DNA of 64,000 nt from an uncultured Granulicella sp. (GCA_965225725.1 CBDDBI010000010.1:169229-233228); one strand, 5' to 3'; counted from the stretch's first letter, positions 16,385 to 37,902 are shown. Program-made: numbers and translations. The notes: generated from the sequence alone by a model not told the origin.

Positions 16385-16415
16385 TTAGCTACGGGCAAGC
16401 GGGACAAACTGATGA

Positions 16416-19148
<2,733 letters not shown>

Positions 19149-19161
19149 CTCCCGCGACCAC

Positions 19162-19250
19162 GGTGCCCCATCAGCGCTTCTTTGGGTGCCCCATCCTGGT
19201 TTCTTTGGGTGCCCCATCCTTCGCGCCGTTGTCTCTCGCGAAGGGTGGGG
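19162..19250. repeat. Three GGTGCCCCATC units at 23-bp period, the last one opening a REP-like hairpin (family 2)
   Basis: Units at 19162, 19185 and 19208; hairpin ccccatccttcgcg...cgcgaagggtgggg. Confidence 0.8.
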
Positions 19251-19360
19251 TATCGTTCGCGGCAGCGAACGACCGCATCGCCCACCCCTAACCTAACAGG
19301 ACCATTGTGGCCGCTGTCCTTGCCACTTTTGCTGCGGAACTTGGCGCTTTCCGAACTCTC

Positions 19361-19395
19361 CTGACACCACGCTGTCAGCACCCCTCCCCTACTCT
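19361..19395 (+). promoter_or_regulatory. Palindrome CTGACA-N6-TGTCAG over the -35 position, with -10 TACTCT, upstream of the VOC gene
   Basis: ctgaca-ccacgc-tgtcag at 19361-19378; TACTCT at 19390-19395. Confidence 0.6.
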
Positions 19396-19436
19396 GCTCC
19401 TCAGAGCACCCCAAACCGCCCTGAGGAGAGCCCGCC

Positions 19437-19868
19437 ATGCCCACCAACGAAATCGAAGCCGCAGTGCAAATGACACCGCAAACCGCAGCCACCGCACCCA
19501 ACCCGCAAGACGCCGCCAACTGGTTCGAGATCCCCACCGCCGACCTCGAACGCGCCACCACCTTCTACGAACTCCTCCTCGGCCGCGAACTCCGGCGCGG
19601 CTTCTTTGGCGAACCCATGAGCCTCTTCGCCTCATCCCAGACCGGCGTCGGCGGAGCTCTCATCCATCGCGACCAGCAGCCACCCTCCTCGTGCGGCTCG
19701 CTCGTCTACCTCAACTGCGACTCCGGCCTTGCCTCCGCGCTCGACCGCATGACCGCCGGCAAACGCGGCCAGGTCGTCGTCCCCATCACCCCTGTCCCCG
19801 GCGGCCTCGGCATCTTTGCCGTCATCCGCGATTCCGAGGGCAACCACGTCGGACTCCACGAACACTAG
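19437..19868 (+). CDS. VOC/glyoxalase family protein
   Basis: NWFEIPTADLERATTFY, LVYLNCD and FAVIRDSEGNHVGLH; SD gaggag. Confidence 0.9.
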   Translation: MPTNEIEAAVQMTPQTAATAPNPQDAANWFEIPTADLERATTFYELLLGRELRRGFFGEPMSLFASSQTGVGGALIHRDQQPPSSCGSLVYLNCDSGLASALDRMTAGKRGQVVVPITPVPGGLGIFAVIRDSEGNHVGLHEH

Positions 19869-19874
19869 ATCATC

Positions 19875-20053
19875 TGTCCTGCCAGACAGGCGCCCTAACC
19901 GCGGGCAGCGGGTACTGCGTACGCCGGGAGCTTCGCGAGACCTCCCGTTGGTCGGCACAGATCTTCGTGCCGACCAAAGGAAGGAGCGACGCGAAGCCCA
20001 ACACAGCCCGAAGGGCTCGCCCCGCGCGACGAGCGGGCCCGTCCGGCAGGACA
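19875..20053. mobile_element. Modular palindromic element (family 1), full copy with arms in swapped order
   Basis: tgtcctgccagacaggcgccct...gagcgggcccgtccggcaggaca with central ttggtcggcac/gtgccgaccaa hairpin. Confidence 0.8.
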
Positions 20054-20071
20054 TATCCTCTAAACTTCCTT

Positions 20072-20779
20072 ATGCGCCGCGCCGACCGACTCTTCCGCAT
20101 CGTCCAGCTCCTGCGGCACAACCGCCTGCTCACCGCCGCGCGCCTGGCCGAAAAGCTCGAAGTCTCCACCCGCACCATCTACCGCGACGTCCTCGACCTC
20201 CAACTCTCCGGCATGCCCATCGAAGGCGAAGCCGGCGTCGGCTACACCCTCCGCCGCGACTTCGATCTCCCACCCCTTATGTTCACCGCCGCCGAACTCA
20301 CCGCGCTCGTCCTCGGCGCCCGCCTCGTCCAGGCCTGGGGCGGCGCCGAATCCGTCGTCGCAGCCTCGTCCGCCCTGCAGCGCATCGAAGCCGTCCTCCC
20401 CGCCGACCTCCGCGACAGCCTCACCGCCATCCAGATGTACGCGCCCGGCTTCCTCATGAAGCCCGCCGACCGGATCCTCCTCGATCGCCTCCACGCCGCC
20501 ATCCTCGCCACCCACCGCATCGAGTTCGACTACACCCGCGAAGACGGCGCCACCTCCCACCGCACCGCGCGCCCGCTCGGCCTCTTCTTCTGGTCCGGCG
20601 TCTGGACCCTCACCGCCTGGTGCGAGCTCCGCGAAACCTTCCGCAACTTCCGCATCGACCGCATCGCCGCCCTCACCACCCATCCCACGCCCACGCCCGC
20701 ACTCCCCGGCCAAACTCTCGCCGACTACCGCGCAAAAGTCCGCGCCGAATACGCCGCGTCCGAGACCTCAATGCAATAA
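20072..20779 (+). CDS. YafY-family transcriptional regulator (HTH + WYL domain)
   Basis: MRRADRLFRIVQLLR, LEVSTRTIYRDV, GEAGVGY, LPPLMFT and RNFRIDRI. Confidence 0.92.
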   Translation: MRRADRLFRIVQLLRHNRLLTAARLAEKLEVSTRTIYRDVLDLQLSGMPIEGEAGVGYTLRRDFDLPPLMFTAAELTALVLGARLVQAWGGAESVVAASSALQRIEAVLPADLRDSLTAIQMYAPGFLMKPADRILLDRLHAAILATHRIEFDYTREDGATSHRTARPLGLFFWSGVWTLTAWCELRETFRNFRIDRIAALTTHPTPTPALPGQTLADYRAKVRAEYAASETSMQ

Positions 20780-22703
20780 TGCGGTTCATGACCTCACCGC
20801 AATCCCCCGTCCAAACCGACCGCCGCCGCTTCCTCGCCCTCTGCTCCGCCGCCGGCCTCGGCCAGACGCTCTTCCCCGGCGCGCTCCTCGCCCTCGCCAC
20901 CAAATCCCATCATCAAGACGAAAAACCCGCCGACGACCATCAGCCCCTACCCAAAATCACCGCCGCGATGATCGACTACGCGGCCACCATCGCCGGCATC
21001 CACATCGAAGACGCCCAGAAAGACGCCATGCTCGACGGCCTCAACTCCCAGCGCGACGACGTCCTAACCATCCGCAAGCTCGACCTCCCCAACGCCGTCG
21101 CCCCCGCCTTCCTCTTCGACCCCGTCCCCGGCGGCATGCACCTCGAAACCCAGCGCCAGCCCCTCAAATCAGCCCACCCCCAGAAATCCCGCTCCAAAAC
21201 TACGATTCCCCCGAAGCCAACGCCGAAGAACTCGCCTTCCTCACCCTCCGCGAGCTCGCCGAGCTCATCCGCACCCGCCGCGTCACCTCCACCACGCTCA
21301 CCAAGATGTACCTCGCGCGCCTCAAGCGCTTCGACCCCCAACTCCACTTCGTCATCACCCTCACCGAAGAGCGCGCCCTCGCCCAGGCCGCCGCGGCCGA
21401 CGCCGAAATCGCCGCCGGCCACTACCGCGGACCGCTCCACGGCATCCCCTGGGGCGGCAAGGATCTCCTCGCCGTCAAAGGCTACCCCACCACCTGGGGC
21501 GCCGGCGGCTTCGAACACCAGACCTTCGACTACGACGCCGTCGTCGTCCAGCGCCTCGACGCCGCCGGCGCCGTGTTGATCGCCAAGCTCTCCATGGGCG
21601 CGCTCGCCCAAGGCGACATCTGGTTCGGTGCCCGCACCCGCAATCCCTGGAACCCCAAACAGGGCTCCAGCGGCTCTTCCGCCGGCTCCGCAAGCGCCAC
21701 CGCCGCCGGCTGCGTCGGCTTCTCCATCGGCACGGAAACCCTCGGCAGCATCTCTTCTCCTTCGACCCGCTGCGGCGCCACCGGCCTTCGCCCCTCCTTC
21801 GGGCTCGTCCCCCGCACCGGCGCCATGGCCCTCAGTTGGACCATGGACAAGATCGGCCCCATCTGCCGCGCCGTCGAAGACTGCGCCATCGTCCTCTCCG
21901 CCATCTACGGCGAAGACGGCCAAGACCTCTCCGTCCAGCCCGCCGCCTTCAACTGGGACGCCTCCTTCGACTGGCGCTCACTCCGCGTCGGCTACATCAA
22001 AACCAGCTTCGAACCCCGCGTCATGCCCGACATCCACCCGCCCGCCGACCCCTCCGACAAGGCCGCCGCCGACGAATACCAGCGCCGCATCGCCCGCGTC
22101 ACCCTCGCCATCGCCCGCTCCAACTACGACCTCCGCTACGCCGCCGACGCCCTCAACGTCCTCCGCCACAAGCTCGCCATCGACCTCATCCCCGTCGCCC
22201 TGCCCGACTTCCCCTTCGGTTCCATCGTGCCCGTGCTTGAGGCCGAGGCGGCCGCGGCGTTCGACCAGCTCACCCTCACCGGCCGCGACAAGCTCCTCAC
22301 CGCCCAAACCCCCAACGACTGGCCCAACCAGTTCCGCGTCGCCCGCTTCTACTCCGCCGTCGATTACATCCAGGCCATGCGCGCCCGCACCCTCGCCATC
22401 GCCAAAATGTCCGAGCTCTTCGCCCAGGTCGACGTCATCGTCACCCCGTCGGACGGCACCCAGCTCGTCGCCACCAACCTCACCGGCCAGCCCGCCGTCA
22501 TCGTCCCCAACGGACTACGCGGCGACGACGCCCCCGCTCCACCCCACGCCGGCGACGAAGACTTCTGGGACGCCGGCGGCCCCGGCACTCCCGTCTCCCT
22601 CACCTTCCTGGGCGCCCTCTACTCCGACGCCCGCGTAGCCTCCCTGGCCCGCGCCTACCAGCAAGCCACGGGATTCCACAAACTCCACCCCAAACTCACC
22701 TAA
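20779..22703 (+). pseudogene. Tat-exported amidase-signature enzyme, split by a single-base frameshift near 21166-21168 (mutation or sequencing error)
   Basis: N-terminal frame from 20779 has the TDRRRFLAL Tat motif. The catalytic frame (GGKDLL, GSSGSSAGS, ETLGSISSP) is open from 21168 to 22703. Adding one A to the AAA at 21166 restores a 641-aa ORF. Confidence 0.85.
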
Positions 22704-22732
22704 ACCAAACCCACTCAAACTCACGCATCCAT

Positions 22733-22912
22733 TAAGGGCACGGCTTCAGCCGTGCCCTTACTACTCTACCCAAACACCCGGCTTCAGCCGCTGAGGAACT
22801 CCTTCGCGCCGAACTTCACCGCTCCCAACGTTCCGAAGAAGTTGTGCCGCTTCTCCTCCGCCCCGCAATTCCCTCACGTGCCCCATTCATCGCGCCGTTT
22901 GCGATGAGTGGG
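22733..22912. repeat. Cluster of REP-like hairpins
   Basis: Perfect taagggcacggc-ttca-gccgtgccctta (22733-22760); cggcttcagccg near 22779; gtgccccattcatcgc...gcgatgagtggg (22878-22912). Confidence 0.7.
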
Positions 22913-22973
22913 AGCCGAACCAGCCCGTAGCGACAAGCTCGCACGTTACGATACCTGCAGGAGCGACCCCGCA

Positions 22974-23401
22974 ATGATCGACCGCAACACAATCCTTGCT
23001 CAGCTCGACAGCGCACCCAAAGACGTCTTCGTTGAGAGAATCCGCACGCTCCTGCACCGCGAAGACACCCGCCTCGTCTCCGACCGCGTCCCGAAGGTGA
23101 CCGTCTCCGAAGCGCACCGCCTCTGGACCACTCGCTGCGAAACACCGCCATCACGGGGCAGACACTCGAAGGCGCAGACTCGTTCCTCACGCGCCTCGAC
23201 AAACTCGCGCCGCAGAGGAAACTGGAAGAGTTCGCCTTCACCGGCTCCCACACCTCGGGCAATCTCTTCTTCGAAGCAAGCACCCACCACTTCATCGGAG
23301 CCATCCTCTTCGCCACGCGAGCACAACGCAAAAGCGCGTATTTCCATCGCCGACGAACCTACCCGGCGAACCATGCTAAGGGCACTGTAGACTCGTTTTG
23401 A
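22974..23401 (+). pseudogene. Hypothetical gene, apparently frameshifted near 23080-23125
   Basis: SD caggag precedes MIDRNTILAQLDS. Host-like codon usage shifts to the -1 frame (DHSLRNTAITGQTLEGADSFLTRLDKL...FIGAILFA), which stops at 23401. Confidence 0.4.
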
Positions 23402-23440
23402 CTGACTATATGAAGCCTGCGGCAGGAGAGAGACCAAGTC

Positions 23441-24550
23441 ATGTTTGTCTTAGGTACGGACGGAAAACTGGTTGCGATGAAGCAGAGGGAGTTCGAAAGA
23501 GAAACAGACTTCCAGCTCTTGCTTGAAGAATATCCGGCGTTGCTCTCGGGAGAGCTAATCGATCCGGAAAATACAAGACTTTGGCTGTTAGTCGCCCGTG
23601 AGATGACGATAGCAAGTGAAGAGAACGGACCGGGGTGGTGGTCGGTTGATCATTTGTTTCTAGATCAAGACGGCATCCCGACGATCGTTGAAGTGAAACG
23701 TACCTCGGACACACGGCTCCGCCGAGAGGTCATCGCGCAGATGCTAGATTATGCGGCAAACGGCTTAGCTCGTTGGAAGATGAACGACTTGAGAAGCAAG
23801 TTCGAATCAGAGTGTGAGAAAAAGAATCAGCAGCCCTCAGACATCTATGAGAATGCGTTTGGACCCGATCTAGACTACGAGATGTTCTGGACCTCCGTGA
23901 AGACTAACTTAGAGGCGAAGCGAATCCGTATGCTCCTTGTCGCGGACGTCATCCCTCGCGAGGTGAAGGCCGTGGTCGAGTTTCTCAATGCACAAATGGA
24001 CCCGGCCGAGATCTTGGCCCTTGAGCTTAGACAATTCGCGGGAGACAATGGCCTTCGCACCATCGTTCCCGCGATCTTCGGTCAAACCGAGACGGCGAGA
24101 AGTACCAAGGGCGCTACTGTAGGGCAAAGCTGGACCGAAGAAAGCGTACTCGCGGAACTGGAGACACGGCATGGTACCGTCTCCAGCAATGTCGCGCGCA
24201 CGATTGTCAATTGGATGCGTACCAATAAGGCGATGATTAGCTGTGGAAGAGGTAAGGTCGACGGCTCGATCAGCGCTGCATTTCACTCTGAGAGCCAGAA
24301 GGTGCATCCCCTGACGATCTATACCATGGGGCGGCTATATGTGAACGCAGGATATTGCATGTCAGGCGCCTTCAAGGAACCAGACAAACGACTCGAGTGG
24401 TTGCACAAACTAAATGAAATTGACGGGATAGCTTTGGCCCTTCGGGACGATAAGTTCCCCTCGATTTCGCTGGAGAGACTGTCGCCCGGAAACCGGTTGC
24501 AACAATTCCTTGAGGTTATGGACTGGTTCGTGGGCCAGTTGAACCAGTGA
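23441..24550 (+). CDS. PD-(D/E)XK nuclease-domain protein (NucS/EndoMS- or RecB-like N-terminus) with unknown C-terminal domain
   Basis: ETDFQLLLEEYPALL, VDHLFLDQDGIPTIVEVKR (D..ExK) and AQMLDY (QxxxY); visibly lower GC than neighbours; SD aggaga. Confidence 0.7.
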   Translation: MFVLGTDGKLVAMKQREFERETDFQLLLEEYPALLSGELIDPENTRLWLLVAREMTIASEENGPGWWSVDHLFLDQDGIPTIVEVKRTSDTRLRREVIAQMLDYAANGLARWKMNDLRSKFESECEKKNQQPSDIYENAFGPDLDYEMFWTSVKTNLEAKRIRMLLVADVIPREVKAVVEFLNAQMDPAEILALELRQFAGDNGLRTIVPAIFGQTETARSTKGATVGQSWTEESVLAELETRHGTVSSNVARTIVNWMRTNKAMISCGRGKVDGSISAAFHSESQKVHPLTIYTMGRLYVNAGYCMSGAFKEPDKRLEWLHKLNEIDGIALALRDDKFPSISLERLSPGNRLQQFLEVMDWFVGQLNQ

Positions 24551-24618
24551 GGCATGCTCTTCCTCAGCAGTTGGCTCTAATAGGACGGCGAATGTAAGTT
24601 ACAGACCCAAAGATGTTC

Positions 24619-25137
24619 CTACTCGATAGCCGCGAACGCCTCACTCAAATCCAGCCGAATCGCCGTCCCCGCCACCCTCAGATCCAGCGGATCGGCGTCC
24701 CGCAGACCCTCCGCGCCAAACGTAAACGCCGCTCGATAGACCGGATCGATCAGCCAGATGTTCTCGACGCCCATCACCAGATAATCCGTCAGCACCAACT
24801 TCGCGCGCGACATCCGGTCCTCCGGCGACAGAATCTCGATGCAGATCAGCGGCGGTGTCGCCGTCACGCGCTCCCGCGGAGCATCCGCCCGCAGCACCGC
24901 TACATCCGCGATCCGCACCTTGCGCTCCGCAACCCGGATGCGCTGTTCCGTGACGGGATGGATGTTCCATTCCTTGCGCCGCGCCCAGAAGCAGCTGCCG
25001 ATCGCAATCTGCAGCGTCGCGTGCTCGAACTCGCCCAAGTTCCGCTCCACAATCTCGCCGTCCACAAAATCGGCGTCGGGCCGGTAGGCGGTGCGCAGGT
25101 ACTCTTCCATCGAAACCAAAGACGTCGAAGTCGCCAT
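24619..25137 (-). CDS. Uma2 (DUF820) family endonuclease-like protein
   Basis: SMEEYL, DFVDGEIVE, RIADVAV, PPLICIEILSPED and GVENIWLIDP. Confidence 0.88.
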   Translation of the reverse strand: MATSTSLVSMEEYLRTAYRPDADFVDGEIVERNLGEFEHATLQIAIGSCFWARRKEWNIHPVTEQRIRVAERKVRIADVAVLRADAPRERVTATPPLICIEILSPEDRMSRAKLVLTDYLVMGVENIWLIDPVYRAAFTFGAEGLRDADPLDLRVAGTAIRLDLSEAFAAIE

Positions 25138-25198
25138 CGCCCCTCCTGCCTCCAGCATGAACCTCCCCCCACCCCCGCCGCAATGAAATAATGACCCC

Positions 25199-26008
25199 AT
25201 GCCGGATCAGGCCGACGCGTCGCACTCGCAATCCGGTTCGCCAGCCCCCACGCCCCCCCTTATCGAAGCCCGCAACCTCACCAAGCGCTACGGCGCCGCA
25301 ACCGTCGTCGACAACGTCTCGCTCACGCTCCACCGCGGCGAGACGCTCGGGCTCGTCGGCGAATCCGGCTCCGGCAAAAGCACCGTCGCGCGCATGATCC
25401 TGCGGCTCATCGAGCCCACCGCCGGCTCCGTCCACTTCGACTCCACCGACGTGCTCGCCGCCAACCAACGCGACCTCCGCAGACTCCGCTCGCGCATGCA
25501 GATGGTCTTCCAGGACCCCTTCGCCGCGCTCAACCCGCGCATGCGCGTCCGCGACATCGTCGCCGAACCCTTCCACATCCAGGGCGGCTTCTCCCGCAGC
25601 CACATCCTCGCCCGCACCGCCGAACTCCTCGCCGAGGTCGGCCTTGAACCCGACGCACTCCCCCGCTACCCGCACGAGTTCTCGGGCGGCCAGCGGCAGC
25701 GCATCAACATCGCCCGCGCCCTCGCCCTCAAACCCGACTTCCTGGCCTTAGACGAACCCGTCAGCGCCCTCGACGTCTCGGTCGGCGCCACCGTCATCAA
25801 CCTGCTGCGCGATCTCCAGCGCAAGCACGGCCTCACCTACCTCTTCATCTCGCATTCCATGCCGCTCATCCGCTACCTCTCGGACAACGTTGCCGTCATG
25901 GAGCGCGGGCGCCTGGTCGAAACCGGCCCGGTCCTCCAGGTCTGCGACCATCCCCGCGAACCCTACACCCAGCGCCTCATCGCCGCCACGCCCGAACTCC
26001 CAATCTGA
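25199..26008 (+). CDS. Peptide/nickel ABC transporter ATP-binding subunit (OppF/DppF-like), orphan
   Basis: GESGSGKS Walker A, YPHEFSGGQRQRI signature, DEPVSALD and HPREPYT. Confidence 0.92.
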   Translation: MPDQADASHSQSGSPAPTPPLIEARNLTKRYGAATVVDNVSLTLHRGETLGLVGESGSGKSTVARMILRLIEPTAGSVHFDSTDVLAANQRDLRRLRSRMQMVFQDPFAALNPRMRVRDIVAEPFHIQGGFSRSHILARTAELLAEVGLEPDALPRYPHEFSGGQRQRINIARALALKPDFLALDEPVSALDVSVGATVINLLRDLQRKHGLTYLFISHSMPLIRYLSDNVAVMERGRLVETGPVLQVCDHPREPYTQRLIAATPELPI

Positions 26009-26014
26009 AAACAA

Positions 26015-26168
26015 GTCCTGCCGGACGGGCCCGCTCACCACGCGGGGCGGGTACTGCGTACGCCGGGAGCTTCGCGTGCGCACGCGCCACAGTATCTCGT
26101 GCCGACCAACGGGAGGATCACGCGAAGCGATTACGGCACGAAGTGCTCGCCGCCCGCGACTAGGGCGC
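26015..26168. mobile_element. Modular palindromic element (family 1), right end truncated
   Basis: gtcctgccggacgggcccgctc...gtactgcgtacgccgggagcttcgcg...cgcccgcgactagggcg. Confidence 0.75.
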
Positions 26169-26190
26169 ACTTGCACCTCGGTACAATGGA

Positions 26191-26988
26191 GTGACTGTGA
26201 TTCACGCCCTCTCCCTCCATTGGCGCTTCCTCTGGCTCGTCTTCGCCTCGCTCATCGCCGGCATTATGAACGCCATGGCTGGAGGAGGTTCTTTCATTTC
26301 TTTTCCCGCGATGCTCGGAATGGGAATTCCGCCGGTCGAAGCAAACGCCACAAACACAGTCGCGCTTTGGCCCGGACAACTGACTTCGCTCGCGTCCCTC
26401 CGCAAAGACGTCCGAACCGACTTGCTCACGCTCGTCCTCGGAACGTCCGTCATTGGCGGAATCACCGGCGCGGAAACGCTTCTGCACACGCGTCAGCTCA
26501 CCTTTCTCCACCTGATTCCCTGGCTTTTGCTCATGGGAGCCTCGATCTTCGGCATCTCTGGACCAGTCTCCAAATGGCTGCGAAACCGCTCGGTCAAAGA
26601 CGCCTCTCAGCCACAAGTTGAACCGCCAATCAACCAGTTCGCGCTCTTCTTCGGCCTCTTTCCCATCTGCTTCTACATCGGATATTTTGGCGCGGGAGGA
26701 GGATTCCTCATCATGACCGTTCTAGCGCTCTTCGGCATGGAACAGATGCATCAGCTCAACGCCATGAAGGTCGTCGCAGCCTGCGCCTCGAACCTCTTTG
26801 CCATCTTCACCTTCATCGCCAGCGGCCGCATCGTCTGGCACGATTGCCTGGTCTCGATGGTCTTCGCCGCAACCGGAGGATTGATCGGAGCGCATTACGC
26901 CAAGCGGATGAATCCCGCAATCCTGCGCGCGGTCGTCGTCATCACCGGACTCACAATCGCCGCATACTTCTTCTACCGTCAGCGCTGA
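26191..26988 (+). CDS. Sulfite exporter TauE/SafE family membrane protein
   Basis: AGIMNAMAGGGSFISFP, ANATNTVALWPG and FYIGYFGAGGG. Confidence 0.88.
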   Translation: MTVIHALSLHWRFLWLVFASLIAGIMNAMAGGGSFISFPAMLGMGIPPVEANATNTVALWPGQLTSLASLRKDVRTDLLTLVLGTSVIGGITGAETLLHTRQLTFLHLIPWLLLMGASIFGISGPVSKWLRNRSVKDASQPQVEPPINQFALFFGLFPICFYIGYFGAGGGFLIMTVLALFGMEQMHQLNAMKVVAACASNLFAIFTFIASGRIVWHDCLVSMVFAATGGLIGAHYAKRMNPAILRAVVVITGLTIAAYFFYRQR

Positions 26989-26989
26989 C

Positions 26990-27037
26990 ACGCGAAGCGT
27001 TCACGCCACGAAGTGGTCGCTGCCCGCGATCAGGGCG
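26990..27037. repeat. Single arm of family 1 element
   Basis: acgcgaagc...cacgaagtggtcgctgcccgcgatcagggcg matches the arms at 14866 and 26168. Confidence 0.65.
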
Positions 27038-27065
27038 TAGTTGCCGTTGCCATTATCCTAGAGAC

Positions 27066-27506
27066 ATGAGTCACGAAGGAATCCGCATCATCAGCGAGCA
27101 GCAGGCGCGCCGCGAACTCGCCGCCGAGCGCCCGCTGCCCGCAGCCGCAGTTACGCCGGACAAAGTGCGCGTTAAGAAGTCCGAAGGTACAGGCGTGGAG
27201 ATCGACTGGAAAGACGGCCATAAGAGCAGTTGGAACTTCGCCTGGCTGCGCAACGCCTGTCCTTGCGCCACCTGCAATGAAGAACGCCAGAAATCCGGAC
27301 GCGAGCCTGGAACGCCGAAGCCGCGTCCGAGCGGTCCGCTGGTCATGTACGAAGCTCCGCCGCGCCCGCTCGAAGTCAGTCCCGTAGGCAAATACGCGGT
27401 GCGCTTCAAGTGGAACGACGGCCACGAATCCGGAATCTACTCCTGGGACTACTTGCGGCGCGTCTGCCACTGCGACGCGTGTCTCTCCGAACGAGAAGCC
27501 GAATAG
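27066..27506 (+). CDS. DUF971 (GBBH-like N-terminal) domain protein
   Basis: IDWKDGHKS, WLRNACPCATC, VGKYAVRFKWNDGHESGIYSWDYL, plus a second CHCDAC. Confidence 0.88.
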   Translation: MSHEGIRIISEQQARRELAAERPLPAAAVTPDKVRVKKSEGTGVEIDWKDGHKSSWNFAWLRNACPCATCNEERQKSGREPGTPKPRPSGPLVMYEAPPRPLEVSPVGKYAVRFKWNDGHESGIYSWDYLRRVCHCDACLSEREAE

Positions 27507-27509
27507 TCC

Positions 27510-28175
27510 CTAAATCTCCGAGTCCATCTTGGCTTCCTGGTAGTTGCTGATGTGCTCGTAGATCTCATCCGGGAACTTCAGGTTGCGGTAGAGGTTGCCG
27601 CAGTCCGGATCGTCCGGGAACGGAATGATGGGAAACTCCTGCTGCGCCTGGTACGAGAGGATCTTATCGCGTCGCGGCGGGTTGTAGTCCTTGCCTTCAA
27701 CTTGCCGCAGCATCAGGCGCGCCTTCTCTTCGTCAACGTCCTTGTCCTTCATCATCCAGGCGAGAACCTCATCGTGCGAGAGGAAGTGGCGCGCAACCAT
27801 GGCGAAGACCAGCCGACCGTAGTGTCCAATGTCTTTGCCGGCGTCGAGCGAATCCAACAGATGCGCCATCATGGAGTCTTTGCGGAGTTCGGCTTCCCCG
27901 CCCTGCGCATCGCCCGAACCTTTTGTAGCTTCAACGTCACCGGTATTGCGTTCTGTGCTCGGGCTTGGCGGAGTCTTCAACGAGTCGCCGCTGGGTGCGG
28001 GTTTGTGGGCTGCTGCGTTCTTCAGCTTGGCAAGTTCCGCCTCCGCGTGTTCGGCGCGTTCGGTCGCTTGCCGAAGCGCTTCGGACTGCTCGTCGGTGAT
28101 CTGCGGTTGATCGAGAACTACTTCGCGCTCTGCCATCTTCGGGCCCTCATTCTTGCGAATGGCTTTATTCGCCAT
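27510..28175 (-). CDS. Hypothetical protein; C-terminal half resembles the PriL C-terminal/PriX helical domain
   Basis: Clean ORF (start may be 28136). Segment MAHLLDSLDAGKDIGHYGRLVFAM...DVDEEKARLMLRQVEGKDYNPPRRDKI recalls the PriL CTD pattern; this is an alignment from memory only. Confidence 0.55.
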   Translation of the reverse strand: MANKAIRKNEGPKMAEREVVLDQPQITDEQSEALRQATERAEHAEAELAKLKNAAAHKPAPSGDSLKTPPSPSTERNTGDVEATKGSGDAQGGEAELRKDSMMAHLLDSLDAGKDIGHYGRLVFAMVARHFLSHDEVLAWMMKDKDVDEEKARLMLRQVEGKDYNPPRRDKILSYQAQQEFPIIPFPDDPDCGNLYRNLKFPDEIYEHISNYQEAKMDSEI

Positions 28176-28245
28176 CTCTTCGCTTTCTATGAGACGCGGC
28201 GCAGTCCTTTCTTGTTGCCTGCAACGTCTCTCTCTGCGGTGAAGG

Positions 28246-28830
28246 CTAAGCCTCGAGCAGCGTGAACAGTTCTTCGACGGAATGAGCGACGAGCAGAATG
28301 AGGCGGTTCTTCGGCTTCAGCACGCCATTTTCGACGCACTCGTCAAGGAACTTGAGCAAGGTGTCGTAGAAGCCGGCCGTGTTGAGCAGGATGATCGGCT
28401 TCTGGTGCAGTTTGAGGGTTTGCCAGGCGAGCACTTCGAACATCTCCTCGAAGGTGCCGAAGCCGCCGGGCAGGATAATGAAGGCGTCGGAGCGCTCGCC
28501 CATCAGCGCCTTGCGCGTGTGCATGGTGGAGGTGACGTGGAGCTCGGAGATGCCGTGATGCGCGACTTCGAGGTCGACGAGCACCTCTGGAATTACGCCG
28601 ACAACGTGACCGCCGGCTTCGAGTGCGGCTTCGGCCACGGCCCGCATCAGGCCCACGCGCGCGCCGCCGTAGATGAGCCCGATCCGTCGCGCCGCGAGCT
28701 CCCGGCCCAGGGACTCTGCGGCGCTGCGATAGAGGGGGTTAGTACCGTCCGCCGAGGCGCAGAAGACGGCTACATTGCGAATCCCGGCTGGCTGTTGGCC
28801 GGAGGCTTCTTCAGAGGAAACAAGCGTCAT
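28246..28830 (-). CDS. LOG family nucleotide phosphoribohydrolase (TIGR00730)
   Basis: VAVFCAS, LIYGGARVGLM, MHTRK and LPGGFGTFEE (PGGxGTxEE). Confidence 0.93.
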   Translation of the reverse strand: MTLVSSEEASGQQPAGIRNVAVFCASADGTNPLYRSAAESLGRELAARRIGLIYGGARVGLMRAVAEAALEAGGHVVGVIPEVLVDLEVAHHGISELHVTSTMHTRKALMGERSDAFIILPGGFGTFEEMFEVLAWQTLKLHQKPIILLNTAGFYDTLLKFLDECVENGVLKPKNRLILLVAHSVEELFTLLEA

Positions 28831-28915
28831 ACTTCGATTATCGCTTAGGTATGTCGCTCGACGATAACGAAGCACCTGGCGTCTAGAAACACTTGTAGCT
28901 CAAAGTAGGTTGGAG

Positions 28916-29236
28916 TTACTGAAGGTCGATGACCTGATTCTCAGTTTGCGAGCTAAGTTCGACAAGCACCTCGCCACGATGATGCGCGCCCGTGGAACTA
29001 TCGGCATAGATAATGGTACCGGCTGGAGCCTTGATCTTAAGGCCCTGGTGAGGCCCGATGGTGTAGCTGTGACCAGCTATCTTGATATCCTGGAAGATGG
29101 GCGCATCGTTGTGCAATGCGAGGCTGATGCGGTAGTCGGGCTGAACCGAATGCGGATGCAGATGCACCAGCTTCGGGAGCGGCGAGACAGCGGTGGAGGC
29201 GGACAACGCGAGTACGGCGAGGGACGTGTAGATCAT
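28916..29236 (-). CDS. Secreted hypothetical protein
   Basis: Signal-like MIYTSLAVLALSAS; SD aaggga upstream; beta-rich mature part. Confidence 0.7.
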   Translation of the reverse strand: MIYTSLAVLALSASTAVSPLPKLVHLHPHSVQPDYRISLALHNDAPIFQDIKIAGHSYTIGPHQGLKIKAPAGTIIYADSSTGAHHRGEVLVELSSQTENQVIDLQ

Positions 29237-29696
29237 TGGAATCTCCCTTTTCCATCAAAGGTTTTACTGAATTCGACTTACGCTGTCCGCCATGGTTCAG
29301 CCAGGCTCGTCGTGTTGGGTGTTACGTGGGTTGGACTGAGTTCGTTCCCGAATATTCGAACTATTTCTTGCGATTTACCGCATTTTGTTCTTAGGACCAT
29401 GGTCCCTGCTTTGGTAGAAAGCATTCGCCATGCCAAAGCTGCGGACTCCTGTTTGCAAGCACTTACTAGAGTTCGTCGGGCATGTAATAGTTGGAAGTGT
29501 TCGAAAGGCTGTGCGGAGTGTCCGGTTGTGAACGATTGCGGGGAATCATCGGAGTTACGGTGGAGTGCAAAACAAGAGCCTCGCGCAGAGAGCGACGCAG
29601 ATTGGCGCGGTTCCTGCCTCGGAAATCTTCGTCGTTTCCAGCGCTTTCTGCGCGAGGTTCTTCTTCACGCTGCGGCGACACTCTAAACTGACGAGA

Positions 29697-30257
29697 ATGC
29701 ACCTGACCCGCGCCACAGAAGCCGACTACCCTTCCATCGTTGGGATTGCCAACATTGCCTACCGCGGAGGTGGCGACTCGCCCGGTTGGACCACCGAAGC
29801 CAGCTATATTGAAGGCCCGCGCTTGACCGAACCTCAGCTCCGCGCGGAGCTGCTTGCCAAACCGGAGGCTCATCTGCTGACTCTGCGCGAGGACGGCGAC
29901 GACCTTCTGCTGGGGACCGTCTGGCTGGAGCCAAAGGGTGCGGGTGTATGGTATCTGGGGCTGCTAACCGTTCGGCCGGACCTGCAGCAACGGCAGCTTG
30001 GACGCGGTCTGCTGGCCGCAGCCGAGGCGTATGCGGCCGAGAACGGAGCCACGTGCATCCGCATGAGCGTCGTCAACATCCGCGCCGCGCTGATTGCCTG
30101 GTACGAGCGTCGCGGCTACGTGCGGACGGGCGAATCGGAGCCGTTTCCCTACGGCGACACGCGCTTCGGCAAGCCGTTGCGCGACGACCTGAGCTTCCTC
30201 AATCTTCAAAAGGAACTTGCACCAGCCGACCTCGACCTGCACAGGCCAAACCCTTAA
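29697..30257 (+). CDS. GNAT family N-acetyltransferase
   Basis: WTTEA, YLGLLTVRPDLQQRQLGRGLL (acetyl-CoA motif A) and LIAWYERRGY. Confidence 0.9.
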   Translation: MHLTRATEADYPSIVGIANIAYRGGGDSPGWTTEASYIEGPRLTEPQLRAELLAKPEAHLLTLREDGDDLLLGTVWLEPKGAGVWYLGLLTVRPDLQQRQLGRGLLAAAEAYAAENGATCIRMSVVNIRAALIAWYERRGYVRTGESEPFPYGDTRFGKPLRDDLSFLNLQKELAPADLDLHRPNP

Positions 30258-30283
30258 GATAGAGGTTGGGGTTTCTCAACGGA

Positions 30284-33130
<2,847 letters not shown>

Positions 33131-33186
33131 CCATCCCCGGCCAGGCCACTCGCCCGCACACCTTTCGAAAAGAGATCAGCAATCCC

Positions 33187-33342
33187 ATGGCAAACACCAA
33201 GAGCATTACCGATAAAGAAGAGCGCAAGAAGATCAAGCGGACTGCGCGGCGCAAGGCCGCTCCGAAGGCTCCGCGCACCGGCGCGCGTGGCGAGAACAAG
33301 GCGAAGGTGAAGAAGGCTTCGCGCGGTCAGTCGAAGCGCTAA
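33187..33342 (+). CDS. Small highly basic protein (51 aa, 20 Lys+Arg), below the ORF-track cut-off
   Basis: MANTKSITDKEERKKIKRTARRKAAPKAPRTGARGENKAKVKKASRGQSKR; fills the pcrA-permease gap; biased AAG/CGC codons. Confidence 0.75.
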   Translation: MANTKSITDKEERKKIKRTARRKAAPKAPRTGARGENKAKVKKASRGQSKR

Positions 33343-33541
33343 GCGTCGAAAGCTTAGGAGCGGCTGCCCCACGATCGGCGCGACATGCGCAGATCGTGGG
33401 GTCTTCGTGTTGGTGGAGCGTCGCGAGGTCGCGGCTTGCGATAACGTGCGCTTTGAACCATGGGAACATGGGGCAACGAGGGTTTCGTTGTAAGGTGGTG
33501 TTAATAACTGCCACTCCCACGCCTGGAGCGACCGCGTCCCC

Positions 33542-35104
33542 TTGCCGAGACAAATCTTTGCTAAAAAGTCCATCGACAAACTTATCTCCGACTCCGAGCG
33601 CCCGGAACATGCGCTGAAGAAGACGCTTGGGCCGGTTTCGCTGACCGCGCTTGGGGTTGGCATCGTGATCGGCTCAGGCATCTTCACGGTGATTGGTACC
33701 GCGATTGGCGGAAATCCTGCAACGACGGCGACGTGGTCGGAATCGCCTGTGATCGACCTGATCTGGGGTGCGCTGCACCATACGAGCGGGGTGGTTGCGG
33801 GCCGTCCCGGCGCAGGGCCGGCGCTGGTCATCTCGCTGTTGCTCGTCGCGTGTGTGTGCGCGCTCACCGGGCTGTGCTACGCGGAGCTCGCGAGCATGAT
33901 TCCGATCGCGGGGTCCGCCTACACCTATTCCTATGCGACTCTGGGCGAGTTGATCGCGTGGATTATCGGATGGGACCTGATTCTCGAATACGCGTTTGCC
34001 AATATGAGCGTCTCGGTGGGCTTCGCGGCGCACCTGGTGAATTTGCTTGACTGGTTCGGAATTCATCTTGACCCGAAGTGGCTGGAGCCGGCGTACCTGC
34101 CGCTGGGCGCGCAGGACCTGGCCGGGCACGATATCTTTGCGCCCGGGCTGCACTTTGGATTTGATATTCCAGCGTTCCTGATCGTGCTGATCATCACCTA
34201 CCTGCTGGTGCGCGGCATTCGCGAGTCGGCGCGGACGAACAACGCCATGGTGCTGATCAAGATCGGCGCCATTCTCACCTTCGTCTTCTTCGGCCTGAGC
34301 TTCATCCACCCGGCGTACTACCATCCGTTTGCGCCGACCGGAATGGGCGGGATCTTGGCTGGCGGGTCCATTATCTTCTTCACGTACATCGGCTTCGATG
34401 CCGTTTCGACGGCTTCGGAAGAGTGCAAGAAGCCGCAGCGCGATGTGCCGATTGGCATCATTGCGACGCTGATCGTTTGCACCGTGCTCTACATCGGCGT
34501 GGCGGCTGTGCTTACGGGTCTCGTGCCCTGGCAGTCGGTTGCGGGAGATGGAGCGCCAGTGGTGAACGCGCTGCAGCGCGTAGCGCTGACGCCGGGTGCG
34601 CATCGTCTGCACTGGGTTCGTCTTGCGGTGCTCTTCGGGGCGATTCTCGGGATGGTTTCGTCGATCCTGGTGGGGCAGTATGGGCAGGCGCGCATCTGGT
34701 TTGCGATGTCGCGCGACCGACTGCTGCCGGACCGCTTCAGCAACATCCACCCGCGGTTTCGCACTCCGGCCTTCGCCACCTGGGTTGCGGGCATCCTGGT
34801 TGCAATTCCAGCGGGGCTGTTCGACGTGGGTACGCTGGCGGAGATGTCGAACATCGGAACGCTGTTTGCGTTTGTGCTGGTTTCGATCGGCGTGATCGTG
34901 CTGCGCTACAAGGATCCGGAGCGCCCGCGTGGGTTCCGCGTGCCGTTCGGCCCGGTGATACCGATTCTGAGCGTGTGCTTTTGCATCCTGCTAATGGCTG
35001 GGCTGCCGGCGCGGACTTGGATTCGCTTCTTTCTATGGCTGATCATTGGGCTCTTTGTCTACGTGCTGTACTCGCGCAAGCGCAGCGAGTTCTACGAACA
35101 GTAG
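33542..35104 (+). CDS. Amino acid permease (APC superfamily, cationic amino acid transporter-like)
   Basis: LGVGIVIGSGIF, YAELASMIPIAGSAYTY, FFTYIGFDAVST and QARIWFAMSRD. Confidence 0.93.
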   Translation: MPRQIFAKKSIDKLISDSERPEHALKKTLGPVSLTALGVGIVIGSGIFTVIGTAIGGNPATTATWSESPVIDLIWGALHHTSGVVAGRPGAGPALVISLLLVACVCALTGLCYAELASMIPIAGSAYTYSYATLGELIAWIIGWDLILEYAFANMSVSVGFAAHLVNLLDWFGIHLDPKWLEPAYLPLGAQDLAGHDIFAPGLHFGFDIPAFLIVLIITYLLVRGIRESARTNNAMVLIKIGAILTFVFFGLSFIHPAYYHPFAPTGMGGILAGGSIIFFTYIGFDAVSTASEECKKPQRDVPIGIIATLIVCTVLYIGVAAVLTGLVPWQSVAGDGAPVVNALQRVALTPGAHRLHWVRLAVLFGAILGMVSSILVGQYGQARIWFAMSRDRLLPDRFSNIHPRFRTPAFATWVAGILVAIPAGLFDVGTLAEMSNIGTLFAFVLVSIGVIVLRYKDPERPRGFRVPFGPVIPILSVCFCILLMAGLPARTWIRFFLWLIIGLFVYVLYSRKRSEFYEQ

Positions 35105-35106
35105 AA

Positions 35107-35216
35107 GCGCCCTGACGCCGGGCGGGCGGTACTGCGTACGCCGGGAGCTTCGCGTGAAAGCCAATATCCCACGAAGTGGTCGCCGCGCGGGATGAGCGCG
35201 CCCGTGCGGCAGCACA
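35107..35216. repeat. Family 1 element lacking the central hairpin (arm A + arm B)
   Basis: gcgccctgacg...gtactgcgtacgccgggagcttcgcg followed by cacgaagtggtcgc...cccgtgcggcagcaca. Confidence 0.75.
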
Positions 35217-35219
35217 TCC

Positions 35220-35951
35220 TCACTCCTCGTCGTTATCCTTGAAGGCGACGACTTCGTCTGTGGCATCGCTGGCGCGAAGCTCCGCCAGCAGCCGGCGATG
35301 CATTGGCTTGGTCGCCACGACCGAAAACGCCACCCGCTCCAGGCCGCCGATATTGTCGCGGTCGAGCACGGCCAGGCGCTCGCCGGCTCCGTCGAGCACG
35401 GACAGAATCGCTCTCTGCATCCGCTGTAGCGCGGCCTCTGTGTCTGTCGCAGCGCGGACATCGGCGCGCACCTCGTAGACCATGGCGTAGCGCTTCCAGC
35501 CGAGATTGCCTTCGAAGGCGCCGATGATCTGCAGCAGGATGAGCACGAGTCCGGTGGCGATCGCGGCCTCCACATACAAGCCGGCGCCGCAGGTCATGCC
35601 GATAGCCGCAACGACGAAGACGGTGGCCGCGCTGGTGAGGCCAATGGTCTTGCTCTTGGTGTGCAGGATGAGGCCAGCACCCAGGAAGCCGACGCCCTGC
35701 ACGATGTTCGCGGCGATCTGCCCGCGGTTCGAGGTCTGGTCACCGGCGATAACGACGGACATGATGGTGAAGAGCGCGGAGCCCATTGAGATGAGCATGT
35801 TGGTGCGGAGGCCGCTGTCTTTATGTCGCCATTCGCGCTCAATACCAATGAGGCCGCCCATCGCGCAGGCCATCAGCAGACGCGTGGTCGAGCTCTGCGA
35901 GAGCAGCATCTGTTGGAAGGTTGAGAAGTGGAGATGGCTGGGATCGATCAT
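35220..35951 (-). CDS. MgtC/SapB family membrane protein
   Basis: GGLIGIEREW, GLRTNMLI, IAANIVQGVGFLGAG and GLTSAATVF. Confidence 0.9.
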   Translation of the reverse strand: MIDPSHLHFSTFQQMLLSQSSTTRLLMACAMGGLIGIEREWRHKDSGLRTNMLISMGSALFTIMSVVIAGDQTSNRGQIAANIVQGVGFLGAGLILHTKSKTIGLTSAATVFVVAAIGMTCGAGLYVEAAIATGLVLILLQIIGAFEGNLGWKRYAMVYEVRADVRAATDTEAALQRMQRAILSVLDGAGERLAVLDRDNIGGLERVAFSVVATKPMHRRLLAELRASDATDEVVAFKDNDEE

Positions 35952-36037
35952 CCTGGTTGGGCTCAAGCGCCAGAATACGCTCGCAGCGAGGCAGTTTGAA
36001 CACGGGGAATCCGCGTGGGCACGAGTATCCTTAGAAG

Positions 36038-37087: not shown

Positions 37088-37101
37088 AACGGAGACAAAA
37101 A

Positions 37102-37190
37102 CGCTCTCGCAAAGAGCGCAAAGGAAGCCAGGTTACGCCAAGGTTTTCCTTCGCGCAACTTGGCTCGCTTGGCGCTCTTTGCGAGAGCGC
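37102..37190. repeat. Inverted repeat of family 3 (CGCTCTCGCAAAGAGCGC)
   Basis: cgctctcgcaaagagcgc versus gcgctctttgcgagagcg; the same unit recurs at 51887-51914; lies between convergent genes. Confidence 0.75.
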
Positions 37191-37198
37191 TTTTTGCT

Positions 37199-37843: not shown

Positions 37844-37902
37844 GCGAGGTTCTCCTGCAGGAGTTAGACCCCGGTTTGAAAAGAAAGTTTGCGTTCAAGG
37901 CT

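What the first reader, a model, noticed from the sequence alone, without database searches (positions are those of the whole stretch)
26000..29700. Strand-composition switch with genes converging on it
Seen (hand counts of 60-nt lines on the + strand): 12721 (minus gene) C22/G14 and 21901 (plus gene) C25/G15, versus 31321 (plus gene) C16/G25 and 38881 (minus gene) C13/G30. So the skew flips regardless of gene strand, between about 26.0 and 28.2 kb. Roughly 70 percent of genes on both sides point toward the switch. Known: a C-rich to G-rich flip normally marks oriC, but genes usually point away from oriC. I found no DnaA-box cluster, dnaA or dif site. Inference: either an inversion/assembly breakpoint (two truncated family-1 elements lie at 26015 and 26990), a cryptic origin (AT-richer gap 29237-29696), or a terminus in a genome with C-rich leading strands.
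Basis: partly seen in the sequence, partly recalled or inferred. Interest (0 to 1): 0.65.

Follow-up and report, generated by a model that had tools for sequence, protein, structure and literature searches.

The report
Origin-like step in sawtooth strand bias
The C-rich to G-rich flip is real and is not a rearrangement or assembly scar: it is one of about 45 sharp upward steps in a saw-tooth strand-bias pattern across this soil acidobacterium's genome, a pattern that looks like many DNA-copying start points and that I found described for no bacterium.

Summary
The four hand counts reproduce exactly. GC skew runs -0.18 (1-26 kb) and +0.20 (36-56 kb), and the change point is at 27.0-27.5 kb. Third-codon skew goes from about -0.5 to +0.4 whatever the gene strand.

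The genome is an Acidobacteriaceae (Granulicella-like), 5.4 Mb; the window lies on a 243-kb contig.

It is not a breakpoint or misjoin. Gene order across the flip is kept in 9 of 10 congeners and 27 family loci, most with one-signed skew. The contig has no long repeats.

It is not oriC or a terminus. rpmH-dnaA-dnaN-parB lie on another contig, there is no DnaA-box cluster or dif site, and the polarity is wrong for a terminus.

The genome's skew is a saw-tooth of sharp rises and gradual falls: 41 up against 9 down (p about 6e-6). A congener shows the same. Slow codon positions track fast ones without lag, so the pattern is not fading inversions.

Best reading (about 0.4): a fixed point from which replication-type asymmetry runs outward, that is, a non-oriC start zone. 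Against this:
- the steps have no origin-like DNA;
- nearby genes lean towards them;
- dnaA lies at no step in three relatives.

The "converging genes" are largely a detection effect.

The parts
1..26000 (.). C-rich (on +) domain. It continues about 100 kb to the left on the contig.
   Evidence: GC skew -0.18; third-position skew -0.3 to -0.7 in genes of both strands
26982..27542 (.). The step: change point of third-position GC skew. The all-site support interval is 26978-28278.
   Evidence: Likelihood change-point scans. Strand-corrected third-position skew by gene runs -0.49, -0.33, -0.17, -0.01, +0.21 across 25199-28875.
28300..61000 (.). G-rich (on +) domain: weak at 28-36 kb, full at 36-56 kb, then falling to zero by about 61 kb.
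26191..26988 (+). TauE/SafE-family membrane protein, the last clearly C-skewed gene
   Evidence: Pfam PF01925, E 4.7e-37
27066..27506 (+). GBBH-like_N (DUF971) protein. Its stop lies 3 bp from the stop of the next gene.
   Evidence: Pfam PF06155, E 2.4e-28; sequence read
27510..28175 (-). 221-aa protein without a Pfam family, tail-to-tail with the previous gene. No paralogue in the genome.
   Evidence: Conserved at this position in relatives.
28246..28875 (-). LOG-family (lysine-decarboxylase-like) gene, used as the synteny anchor
   Evidence: Pfam PF03641, E 3.2e-45; 80 related loci
29237..29696 (.).
   Evidence: GC 0.517. No DnaA box, no Rfam match, only a 24-nt inverted repeat at 29571-29594 / 29642-29665.
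30266..33130 (+). UvrD/PcrA helicase
   Evidence: Pfam PF00580, E 7.9e-94, and PF13361
16443..19148 (+). gyrB, here separated from dnaA-dnaN, about 8 kb left of the step
   Evidence: Pfam DNA_gyraseB, Toprim, GyrB_C
26015..26168 (.). Family-1 palindromic repeat. A partial second copy is at 26989-27044.
   Evidence: Direct repeat D2, 84% identity. About 294 sites genome-wide, not enriched at steps. The fold is not better than shuffles.
23441..25200 (.). Low-GC, skew-free insert (ORF without a Pfam hit plus a Uma2 nuclease gene), absent from relatives
   Evidence: GC 0.57 and skew about 0; Pfam PF05685; missing between the 21306 and 25199 orthologues in relatives

Best explanation
Shown: the flip is a genuine, long-standing switch of replication-type (G+T against C+A) mutational asymmetry. 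It lies inside an ancestral, unrearranged gene block. It is one of about 45 sharp upward steps (median spacing 80 kb) in a genome-wide saw-tooth, in which the skew jumps up within a few kb and then drifts down over tens of kb. Inferred: the step marks a fixed point from which the asymmetric process runs outward in both directions. DNA to its left has long been copied mostly leftward and DNA to its right mostly rightward. In other words it behaves like a replication start zone other than oriC, and the forks from it end at scattered places, which gives the gradual falls. The convergence of genes on the step is mostly incidental. Coding strands here are slightly C-rich at third positions (-0.06), which makes steps at convergent junctions easier to see, and beyond 10 kb there is no orientation bias at all.
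For: 1. Synteny across the step is kept in 9 of 10 congeners and 27 family loci, most of them with skew of one sign. A local rearrangement therefore cannot have made it.
2. Sharp steps are asymmetric genome-wide. All sites, half-window 8 kb, step of at least 0.25: 31 up against 5 down. Third positions, step of at least 0.45: 42 against 11. Strand-corrected gene level, step of at least 0.4: 41 against 9; at least 0.5: 27 against 3; binomial p about 6e-6. The statistic does not change under reverse complement. An inversion creates one up and one down step of equal sharpness.
3. The same asymmetry appears in 1.2 Mb of relatives: steps of at least 0.3, 8 up against 0 down. The saw-teeth can be seen directly.
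4. Slow sites (codon positions 1+2) follow fast sites linearly (slope 0.15). The intercept is +0.0135 +/- 0.002 in the replichore-oriented frame. Fading inversions predict a clearly negative intercept.
5. AT3 skew is anticorrelated with GC3 skew (r = -0.74), the classical leading-strand signature.
6. Polarity: rRNA, tuf, ribosomal-protein and rpoBC loci lie on the regionally G-rich strand. rRNA operons of G008 (both), G002 and G000 sit at upward steps with a G-rich sense strand downstream, as rRNA operons do when they point away from origins.
7. In G000 the rpmH-dnaA-dnaN region lies 5-6 kb from one of the strongest steps.
Against: - The steps have no origin-like DNA. The nearest intergenic gap is not longer (105 against 130 nt) or AT-richer (GC 0.574 against 0.583) than average. 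There is no shared motif, no shared gene family and no DnaA-box cluster anywhere on the three large contigs. The window's step sits at a 3-bp tail-to-tail junction.
- 58-63% of genes within 10 kb point towards the steps, so they would be head-on to forks leaving them. Convergent junctions are enriched about twofold.
- dnaA is not at an upward step in G004, G008 or the isolate Edaphobacter modestus; it sits on falling slopes.
- Far from dnaA the reversed zones are short (20-40 kb). Simple origin-timing models do not predict this.
- No bacterium is known to use more than one origin per chromosome (PMC4403523).
- An earlier, similar reading elsewhere in this scan fell on the same kinds of check (e1-2689436).
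Confidence: 0.4

Rival explanations
1. A polar process other than replication makes the steps. It would expose the strand that runs 5' to 3' away from a fixed site, and it would fade with distance. Candidates are very long read-through or divergent transcription and R-loops from strongly transcribed units, or rolling-circle or transfer-like strand displacement from nick sites.
For: Large steps lie across both rRNA operons of G008 and the operon of G002, and a smaller one next to the operon of G000. Three of 48 tRNA genes lie within 1 kb of a step (P = 0.04). Steps also lie at the rpoBC and ribosomal-protein clusters. Far from dnaA the anomaly is one-sided and decays over 20-40 kb. No origin-like DNA would be needed.
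Against: - The skew does not depend on the strand of the genes it covers, so the transcripts would have to run antisense through many genes for tens of kb.
- Genes near steps lean towards them rather than away.
- Full sign reversal around 4.1-4.3 Mb would need the process to outweigh replication.
- The steps at rpoBC and the ribosomal-protein genes are confounded by codon bias.
- RNase H genes are present.
Confidence: 0.18
2. The step is a relic of past inversions or translocations whose skew has not yet re-equilibrated, in a lineage that rearranges very fast.
For: G000 and G008 share only blocks of 10-40 kb. C8 has about 59 skew segments. Two G000 steps (C8:3126290 and 2330120) fall within about 3 kb of synteny breaks against G008. 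Rearrangement is the standard explanation for local skew minima (PMC4403523; PMC8941118).
Against: - This step lies inside a block that is intact in 9 of 10 congeners.
- Three of five mappable G008 steps also lie inside shared blocks.
- Sharp rises outnumber sharp falls about 4 to 9 fold, whereas inversions make them in equal numbers.
- Slow sites show no lag.
- The genome has almost no long repeats.
Confidence: 0.15
3. The steps are fixed places where forks meet. Convergent or strongly transcribed units would act as fork traps. This requires a lineage whose leading strand is C-rich, with replication starting diffusely in the falling slopes.
For: Genes lean towards the steps (58-63% within 10 kb) and convergent junctions are enriched twofold. 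Tight junctions without spare DNA suit termination. dnaA of G004, G008 and E. modestus sits on falling slopes near the + to - crossing. A checker preferred 'forks meeting' for similar steps in a planctomycete (e1-2689436).
Against: - It would put the sole rRNA operon of G000 and its ribosomal-protein, tuf and rpoBC clusters head-on.
- About half of the rRNA operons in the genus would be head-on.
- No bacterium with a C-rich leading strand is known (general knowledge).
- A fixed oriC at dnaA should give a sharp fall, and none is seen.
- It still needs dozens of start zones.
Confidence: 0.12
4. Contig C10 is a separate circular replicon of about 243 kb (a chromid), and the step is its single origin.
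For: If closed into a circle, C10 has one upward step (196 kb) and one gradual fall (about 90 kb) nearly opposite it. The two arms would be 137 and 106 kb.
Against: - C10 has no ParB or DnaA gene.
- Its ends do not overlap and no ORF spans the junction.
- It carries the only rRNA operon, gyrB and uvrD.
- Its genes lie on the single chromosome of G008, G004 and G012.
- C8 has about 40 equivalent steps.
Confidence: 0.1
5. Homologous replacement: the right-hand flank was imported from a relative in which the block had the opposite skew.
For: Relatives carry the block with either skew sign.
Against: Genes on both sides have the same nearest relative (G005) at similar identity: 72-88% on the left and 65-85% on the right. 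The G-rich domain spans more than 30 kb. Imports would make sharp rises and sharp falls equally often.
Confidence: 0.03

Closest known systems
N-domains of mammalian genomes (skew profiles with upward jumps at replication origins and linear decline between them; general knowledge, see also PMC3459929 for yeast)
   Same: Abrupt upward skew jumps, near-linear falls between them, independence from gene strand, and domain sizes of tens to hundreds of kb.
   Different: This is a bacterium with DnaA, a classical rpmH-dnaA-dnaN region and a global two-arm trend. No origin mapping exists for it. Genes lean towards the jumps rather than away from them.
GC-skew switch at bacterial oriC
   Same: C-rich to G-rich polarity, the G+T-rich strand signature, and rRNA operons pointing away from some steps.
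   Different: There are about 45 steps instead of one. The steps have no DnaA-box cluster and no AT-rich spacer, and they are not next to dnaA. The position is not shared by relatives, and dnaA of three relatives is not at a step.
Local skew inversions left by chromosomal inversions (as in rearranged Salmonella or Yersinia genomes; PMC8941118 'Anomalies')
   Same: Many sign changes of skew along one chromosome in a fast-rearranging lineage.
   Different: Here the sharp changes are almost all upward, the step lies in conserved gene order, no flanking repeats exist, and slow sites do not lag.
Origin-independent initiation at oriK sites (constitutive stable DNA replication of E. coli rnhA or recG mutants; general knowledge)
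   Same: Several non-oriC start places, some at rRNA operons and other strongly transcribed units.
   Different: That is known only in mutants. RNase H genes are present here. Most steps, including the window's, are not at obviously strongly transcribed genes.
Multiple origins of archaeal chromosomes (Sulfolobus, Haloferax)
   Same: Several fixed start sites on one circular chromosome.
   Different: Archaea have 2-4 origins, each next to an orc1/cdc6 gene and with conserved boxes. Here there are dozens of steps with no common gene or motif.

Membership tests
Bacterial chromosomal origin (oriC) | Skew switches from C-rich to G-rich on the top strand | tested here: met
Bacterial chromosomal origin (oriC) | Cluster of DnaA boxes | tested here: not met
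   No hit within 15 kb of the step at up to 1 mismatch. No cluster of 3 or more in 600 bp on C8, C10 or C14.
Bacterial chromosomal origin (oriC) | AT-rich unwinding region in an intergenic spacer at the switch | tested here: not met
   The change point is at a 3-bp tail-to-tail junction. The only AT-richer gap (GC 0.517) lies about 2 kb away.
Bacterial chromosomal origin (oriC) | Next to dnaA, dnaN, rpmH or parAB | tested here: not met
   These lie at C8:3.92-3.94 Mb. Only gyrB is nearby, 8 kb away.
Bacterial chromosomal origin (oriC) | Position conserved among relatives | tested here: not met
   Most relatives have one-signed skew across the same genes. Upward steps occur near the block in 4 of 11 congeners, at different junctions.
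Replication terminus / dif region | Skew switches from G-rich to C-rich | tested here: not met
   The polarity is the opposite.
Replication terminus / dif region | dif (XerCD) site | tested here: not met
   None in the window. The only dif-like 28-mer is at C8:1291965.
Inversion or translocation breakpoint | Gene order broken relative to relatives at the switch | tested here: not met
   Order and orientation are kept in 9 of 10 congeners and 27 family loci.
Inversion or translocation breakpoint | Repeats or mobile elements at the ends | tested here: not met
   No repeat of 400 bp or more on C10. Family-1 repeats are not enriched at steps: 3 of 42 against 1.8 expected.
Inversion or translocation breakpoint | Slow sites lag behind fast sites in the reversed DNA | tested here: not met
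   Intercept +0.0135 +/- 0.002, not negative.
Assembly misjoin | Junction unsupported by independent sequence | tested here: not met
   The same junction is present in many independent genomes.
Plasmid or chromid origin | Replicon-specific rep and par genes, and a circular molecule | tested here: inconclusive
   No ParB or DnaA on C10. No end overlap or spanning ORF. Other Rep families were not searched. The skew of C10 alone would fit a circle.
N-domain-type multi-origin skew landscape | Sharp upward jumps, gradual falls, independent of gene strand | tested here: met
   41 up against 9 down after strand correction. Profiles. 58% of adjacent 10-kb increments are negative, skewness +0.61.
N-domain-type multi-origin skew landscape | Mapped replication initiation at the jumps | not testable with these tools
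R-loop-dependent (oriK-like) initiation | Sites at strongly transcribed units | tested here: inconclusive
   rRNA operons lie at steps in 4 of 9 cases. tRNA genes: 3 of 48, P = 0.04. No such gene is evident at the window's step.
R-loop-dependent (oriK-like) initiation | Loss of RNase HI | tested here: not met
   Two RNase_H matches above cut-off in the genome.

The most novel reading that the evidence does not exclude
Chromosomes of this Granulicella-like genus, and more weakly of other Acidobacteriaceae, are copied from dozens of fixed start zones with scattered fork meeting. This would be a eukaryote-like replication programme in a bacterium that still keeps dnaA. The window's step would be one such zone, and the saw-tooth skew would be its mutational footprint.
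Probability: 0.25. Interest if true: 0.95.

Novelty: new variant of a known kind. Interest (0 to 1): 0.62.

Why it matters
Bacteria are taken to copy each chromosome from one origin, and no natural exception has been shown (PMC4403523). Skew plots with many turns are routinely put down to inversions or misassembly.

In this genome a sharp turn sits inside conserved gene order. Sharp turns are almost all of the origin-like sign, and slow-evolving sites show no sign of fading. The routine explanation therefore does not fit.

If the steps are start zones, a common group of soil bacteria would have a replication programme unknown in bacteria, and it could be tested directly in cultivable relatives.

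If they are not, some other strongly polar, site-anchored mutational process is at work, and it can rewrite third codon positions from -0.5 to +0.5.

Either way there are practical consequences:
- skew-based origin finders and misassembly tests will mislead in this family;
- the excess of sharp rises over sharp falls, combined with the slow-site test, gives a way to tell relics from standing asymmetry in any genome.

Tried and rejected
- DnaA-box scans (E. coli consensus, up to 1 mismatch) found no cluster in the window or the genome. Even the rpmH-dnaA spacer has only boxes with 2 mismatches, so the scan has little power in this lineage.
- dif searches with three consensus sequences gave one weak candidate far from any switch.
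- Family-1 repeats, shared motifs, shared gene families and paralogues of the 221-aa protein are not linked to the steps.
- Loss of RNase H as a cause of origin-independent initiation is rejected, because the genes are present.
- Circularity of C10 is not supported, but it is not excluded either.
- A slope test on the 20-kb loci of relatives was uninformative: 25 negative against 25 positive, as any stationary saw-tooth gives.
- I first inferred from positions 1+2 that window 27.5-37 kb had turned G-rich only recently. I retract this. The genes to its right carry a gene-specific positive offset in every congener, whatever their third-position skew.
- I first took the dnaA-adjacent step in G000 as proof of polarity. 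In G004, G008 and E. modestus dnaA is not at a step, so that argument is weak.
- 'Genes converge on the steps' as a general rule holds only within 10 kb (58-63%). It is partly a detection effect of a -0.06 coding-strand term.
- Conservation of a step near uvrD in the genus: 4 of 11 genomes, at different junctions, which is not clearly above chance.
- Literature searches for a bacterial saw-tooth skew found nothing.

Full report
**1. The observation**

The window is G000:C10:169229-233228. The assembly has 5.45 Mb in 14 contigs: C8 4.65 Mb, C14 366 kb, C10 243 kb. GC content is 62%.

- Plus-strand GC skew is -0.18 over 1-26 kb, about 0 over 26-28.3 kb, +0.08 over 28.3-36 kb and +0.20 over 36-56 kb.
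- The cumulative minimum is at 27941. The likelihood change point has a support interval of 26978-28278, which narrows to 26982-27542 on third codon positions.
- Third-position skew, expressed on the + strand, is -0.3 to -0.7 on the left and +0.2 to +0.5 on the right for genes of either strand.
- In the window 16 of 24 genes on the left are on + and 24 of 31 on the right are on -.

**2. Organism and replication landmarks**

Relatives of the LOG gene are Granulicella, Edaphobacter and Terriglobus, so the genome is an Acidobacteriaceae.

- dnaA is at C8:3939446-3940879 (-). rpmH lies divergent across a 650-bp spacer that holds only degenerate DnaA boxes. dnaN is 2 kb downstream and parB 17 kb away.
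- The only rRNA operon is on C10 at about 145-150.4 kb, on the - strand.
- The cumulative skew of C8 peaks near 1.18 Mb. A dif-like 28-mer lies at C8:1291965.
- The rRNA operon, both tuf genes, the ribosomal-protein cluster and rpoBC lie on the regionally G-rich strand, as do 21 of 34 tRNAs. The usual polarity (G-rich leading strand) therefore probably holds.
- Genes as a whole show no strand preference relative to skew: 51% are on the G-rich strand.

**3. Not a breakpoint or a misjoin**

I compared window proteins with 63 family-level loci and with 40-kb stretches from 10 same-genus genomes.

- The order amidase (21306) - ABC ATPase (25199) - TauE (26191) - GBBH-like (27066) - 221-aa protein (27510) - LOG (28246) - uvrD (30266) - permease (33542) - deaminase (36038) - 37199 to 44080 is kept, with the same relative orientations, in 27 family loci and 9 of 10 congeners.
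- Most of those relatives carry skew of one sign across the whole block. The sign differs between relatives.
- C10 has no repeat of 400 bp or more.
- The 'family-1 elements' are short palindromic repeats with about 294 sites genome-wide. They are not enriched at skew steps.
- Genes on both flanks have the same nearest relative at similar identity, so a recent import of one flank is unlikely.

**4. The flip is one tooth of a genome-wide saw-tooth**

C8 has about 59 skew segments, but the profile is not a square wave. The skew jumps up within a few kb and then drifts down over 30-140 kb. The sign of a step does not change under reverse complement, so counts of rises and falls are meaningful.

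| Measure | Threshold | Up | Down |
|---|---|---|---|
| All sites, half-window 8 kb | at least 0.25 | 31 | 5 |
| All sites, half-window 8 kb | at least 0.3 | 16 | 1 |
| Third positions | at least 0.45 | 42 | 11 |
| Gene level, coding-strand term removed | at least 0.4 | 41 | 9 |
| Gene level, coding-strand term removed | at least 0.5 | 27 | 3 |

- The binomial p for the gene-level counts is about 6e-6.
- Of adjacent 10-kb increments, 58% are negative. The positive ones are fewer and larger (skewness +0.61).
- Median spacing of upward steps on C8 is 80 kb.
- AT3 skew mirrors GC3 skew (r = -0.74), the classical replication signature.
- The same picture holds in the single-contig congener G008: in the 400 kb fetched around uvrD, 6 up against 0 down at a step of at least 0.3. 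Pooled over 1.2 Mb of relatives it is 8 against 0.
- The isolate Edaphobacter modestus DSM 18101 shows weaker, smoother waves. The pattern is therefore not an artefact of metagenome assembly.

**5. Why fading inversions do not explain it**

- An inversion makes one sharp fall and one sharp rise of equal size. Later inversions preserve the sign and size of internal steps, and re-equilibration shrinks both alike.
- Events that span the origin or the terminus only split the single fall at the terminus. They cannot give about 40 sharp rises with few sharp falls.
- After an inversion, fast sites should re-equilibrate ahead of slow ones. In a frame oriented by replichore, skew at positions 1+2 should then lag, giving a negative intercept at zero third-position skew. 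Observed: slope 0.15 and intercept +0.0135 +/- 0.002. With the frame defined instead by the mean over +/-200 kb, the intercept is +0.019 +/- 0.003.
- Intermediate skew is therefore close to a standing state.
- Three of five mappable steps in G008 also lie inside blocks shared with G000.

**6. What the steps look like**

- Under the usual polarity an upward step is a place from which forks diverge.
- On the minus-skew arm (2.34-2.66 Mb) the anomaly lies to the right of each step and relaxes over 20-40 kb. Around 4.09-4.34 Mb the teeth swing fully from +0.26 to -0.27.
- In operon orientation both rRNA operons of G008 sit across jumps of about 0.55-0.6. The operon of G002 sits across a jump of about 0.28, and that of G000 next to one of about 0.2. 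The downstream flank is G-rich on the sense strand in 6 of 8 informative cases.
- Three of 48 tRNA genes lie within 1 kb of a step (P = 0.04).
- In G000 a strong step lies 5-6 kb from the rpmH-dnaA spacer.

**7. What speaks against start zones**

- The steps have no common motif, no common gene family and no DnaA-box cluster.
- Their nearest intergenic gaps are neither longer nor AT-richer than average.
- The window's step falls at a tail-to-tail junction with a 3-bp spacer. The AT-richer gap at 29237-29696 is 2 kb away and featureless.
- After strand correction, 58% of genes within 10 kb still point to the steps, and convergent junctions make up 34% against an 18.6% background. Beyond 10 kb the figure is 50%. 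Part of this is a detection effect of the coding-strand term: -0.06 at third positions and +0.03 at positions 1+2.
- dnaA of G004 and G008 lies 18-28 kb from the nearest upward steps, on falling slopes. The same holds for E. modestus.
- An earlier case in this scan with similar steps lost its multi-origin reading on these same kinds of check.

**8. Verdict**

The flip is real and old, and it lies in unrearranged DNA. It is not oriC, not a terminus, not a breakpoint and not a misjoin.

The most economical reading (about 0.4) is a fixed site from which replication-type asymmetry diverges, that is, a secondary start zone with dispersed fork meeting. The rivals are:
- a non-replicative polar process anchored at strongly transcribed units (0.18);
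- rearrangement relics (0.15);
- fixed fork-meeting sites with reversed polarity (0.12);
- C10 as a separate replicon with its origin here (0.10);
- homologous replacement (0.03).

I found no paper that describes such a saw-tooth in bacteria. The literature holds that no bacterium is known to use two origins on one chromosome, and that local skew minima need not be origins (PMC4403523).

The decisive test is marker frequency or fork-direction mapping in a cultivable congener.

Noticed in passing
relatives: G008:C1:3456573-3458074 and 3746463-3747964; G002:C1:2985160-2986659: Both rRNA operons of G008 and the operon of G002 sit exactly across large upward skew jumps. The upstream flank falls to about -0.27 and the downstream flank starts at about +0.33 and declines with distance.
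   Followed up: partly
G000:C8:1291965-1291992: The only dif-like 28-mer in the genome (ACGTCCGATAACACATATTATGTACAGT, 21 of 28 to B. subtilis dif). It lies next to a tRNA-Ser gene, in uniformly negative skew, about 110 kb from the cumulative-skew maximum.
   Followed up: no
G000:C8:3940880-3941530 (locus L001:2410-3062): The rpmH-dnaA spacer of about 650 bp is relatively AT-rich but holds only DnaA-box-like 9-mers with 2 mismatches (for example TTTTCCACT, TTATGTACA). The DnaA box of this lineage may differ from the E. coli consensus.
   Followed up: partly
G000:C8:4340000-4648271 and C14:310000-366289: These contig ends have lower GC (0.50-0.57) and almost no skew. They carry a second, weak DnaA-like match (C8:4413990) and an extra ParB gene (C8:4494242). 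They are probably integrated or plasmid-derived DNA.
   Followed up: no
G000:C13 (10334 bp): A contig with 31.8% GC made largely of tandem copies of a unit of about 200 nt. It is probably not part of this organism.
   Followed up: no
window 23441-25200: A low-GC, skew-free insert (369-aa ORF without a Pfam hit plus a Uma2-family nuclease gene) that relatives lack between the amidase and ABC ATPase genes. It lies 2 kb left of the step.
   Followed up: partly
window 16443-19148: gyrB is separated from dnaA-dnaN (which are on C8) and lies 8 kb left of the step. It is part of the block conserved across the family.
   Followed up: partly
window 29237-29696: An intergenic gap of 330-460 nt (GC 0.517) upstream of the GNAT gene. 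It has no Rfam match and a 24-nt inverted repeat (29571-29594 / 29642-29665). This is long for the genome, where the median gap is 130 nt.
   Followed up: partly
genome-wide (G000): Coding strands are slightly C-rich at third positions (-0.06) and slightly G-rich at positions 1+2 (+0.03). rpoBC and the ribosomal-protein genes are markedly C-rich at third positions, which produces gene-sized false 'steps' (for example C8:2657-2671 kb and C8:105.7 kb).
   Followed up: yes
G000 contig ends: The right end of C12 equals the left end of C8 (409 bp, 100%). The left end of C9 is the inverted left end of C14 (286 bp, 100%). The ends of C10 match nothing.
   Followed up: no
G000 against G008 (G008:C1:1725001-2125000): Two species of one genus (uvrD 87% identical) share only blocks of about 10-40 kb, scattered over the genome, although the G000 assembly has almost no long repeats.
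   Followed up: partly
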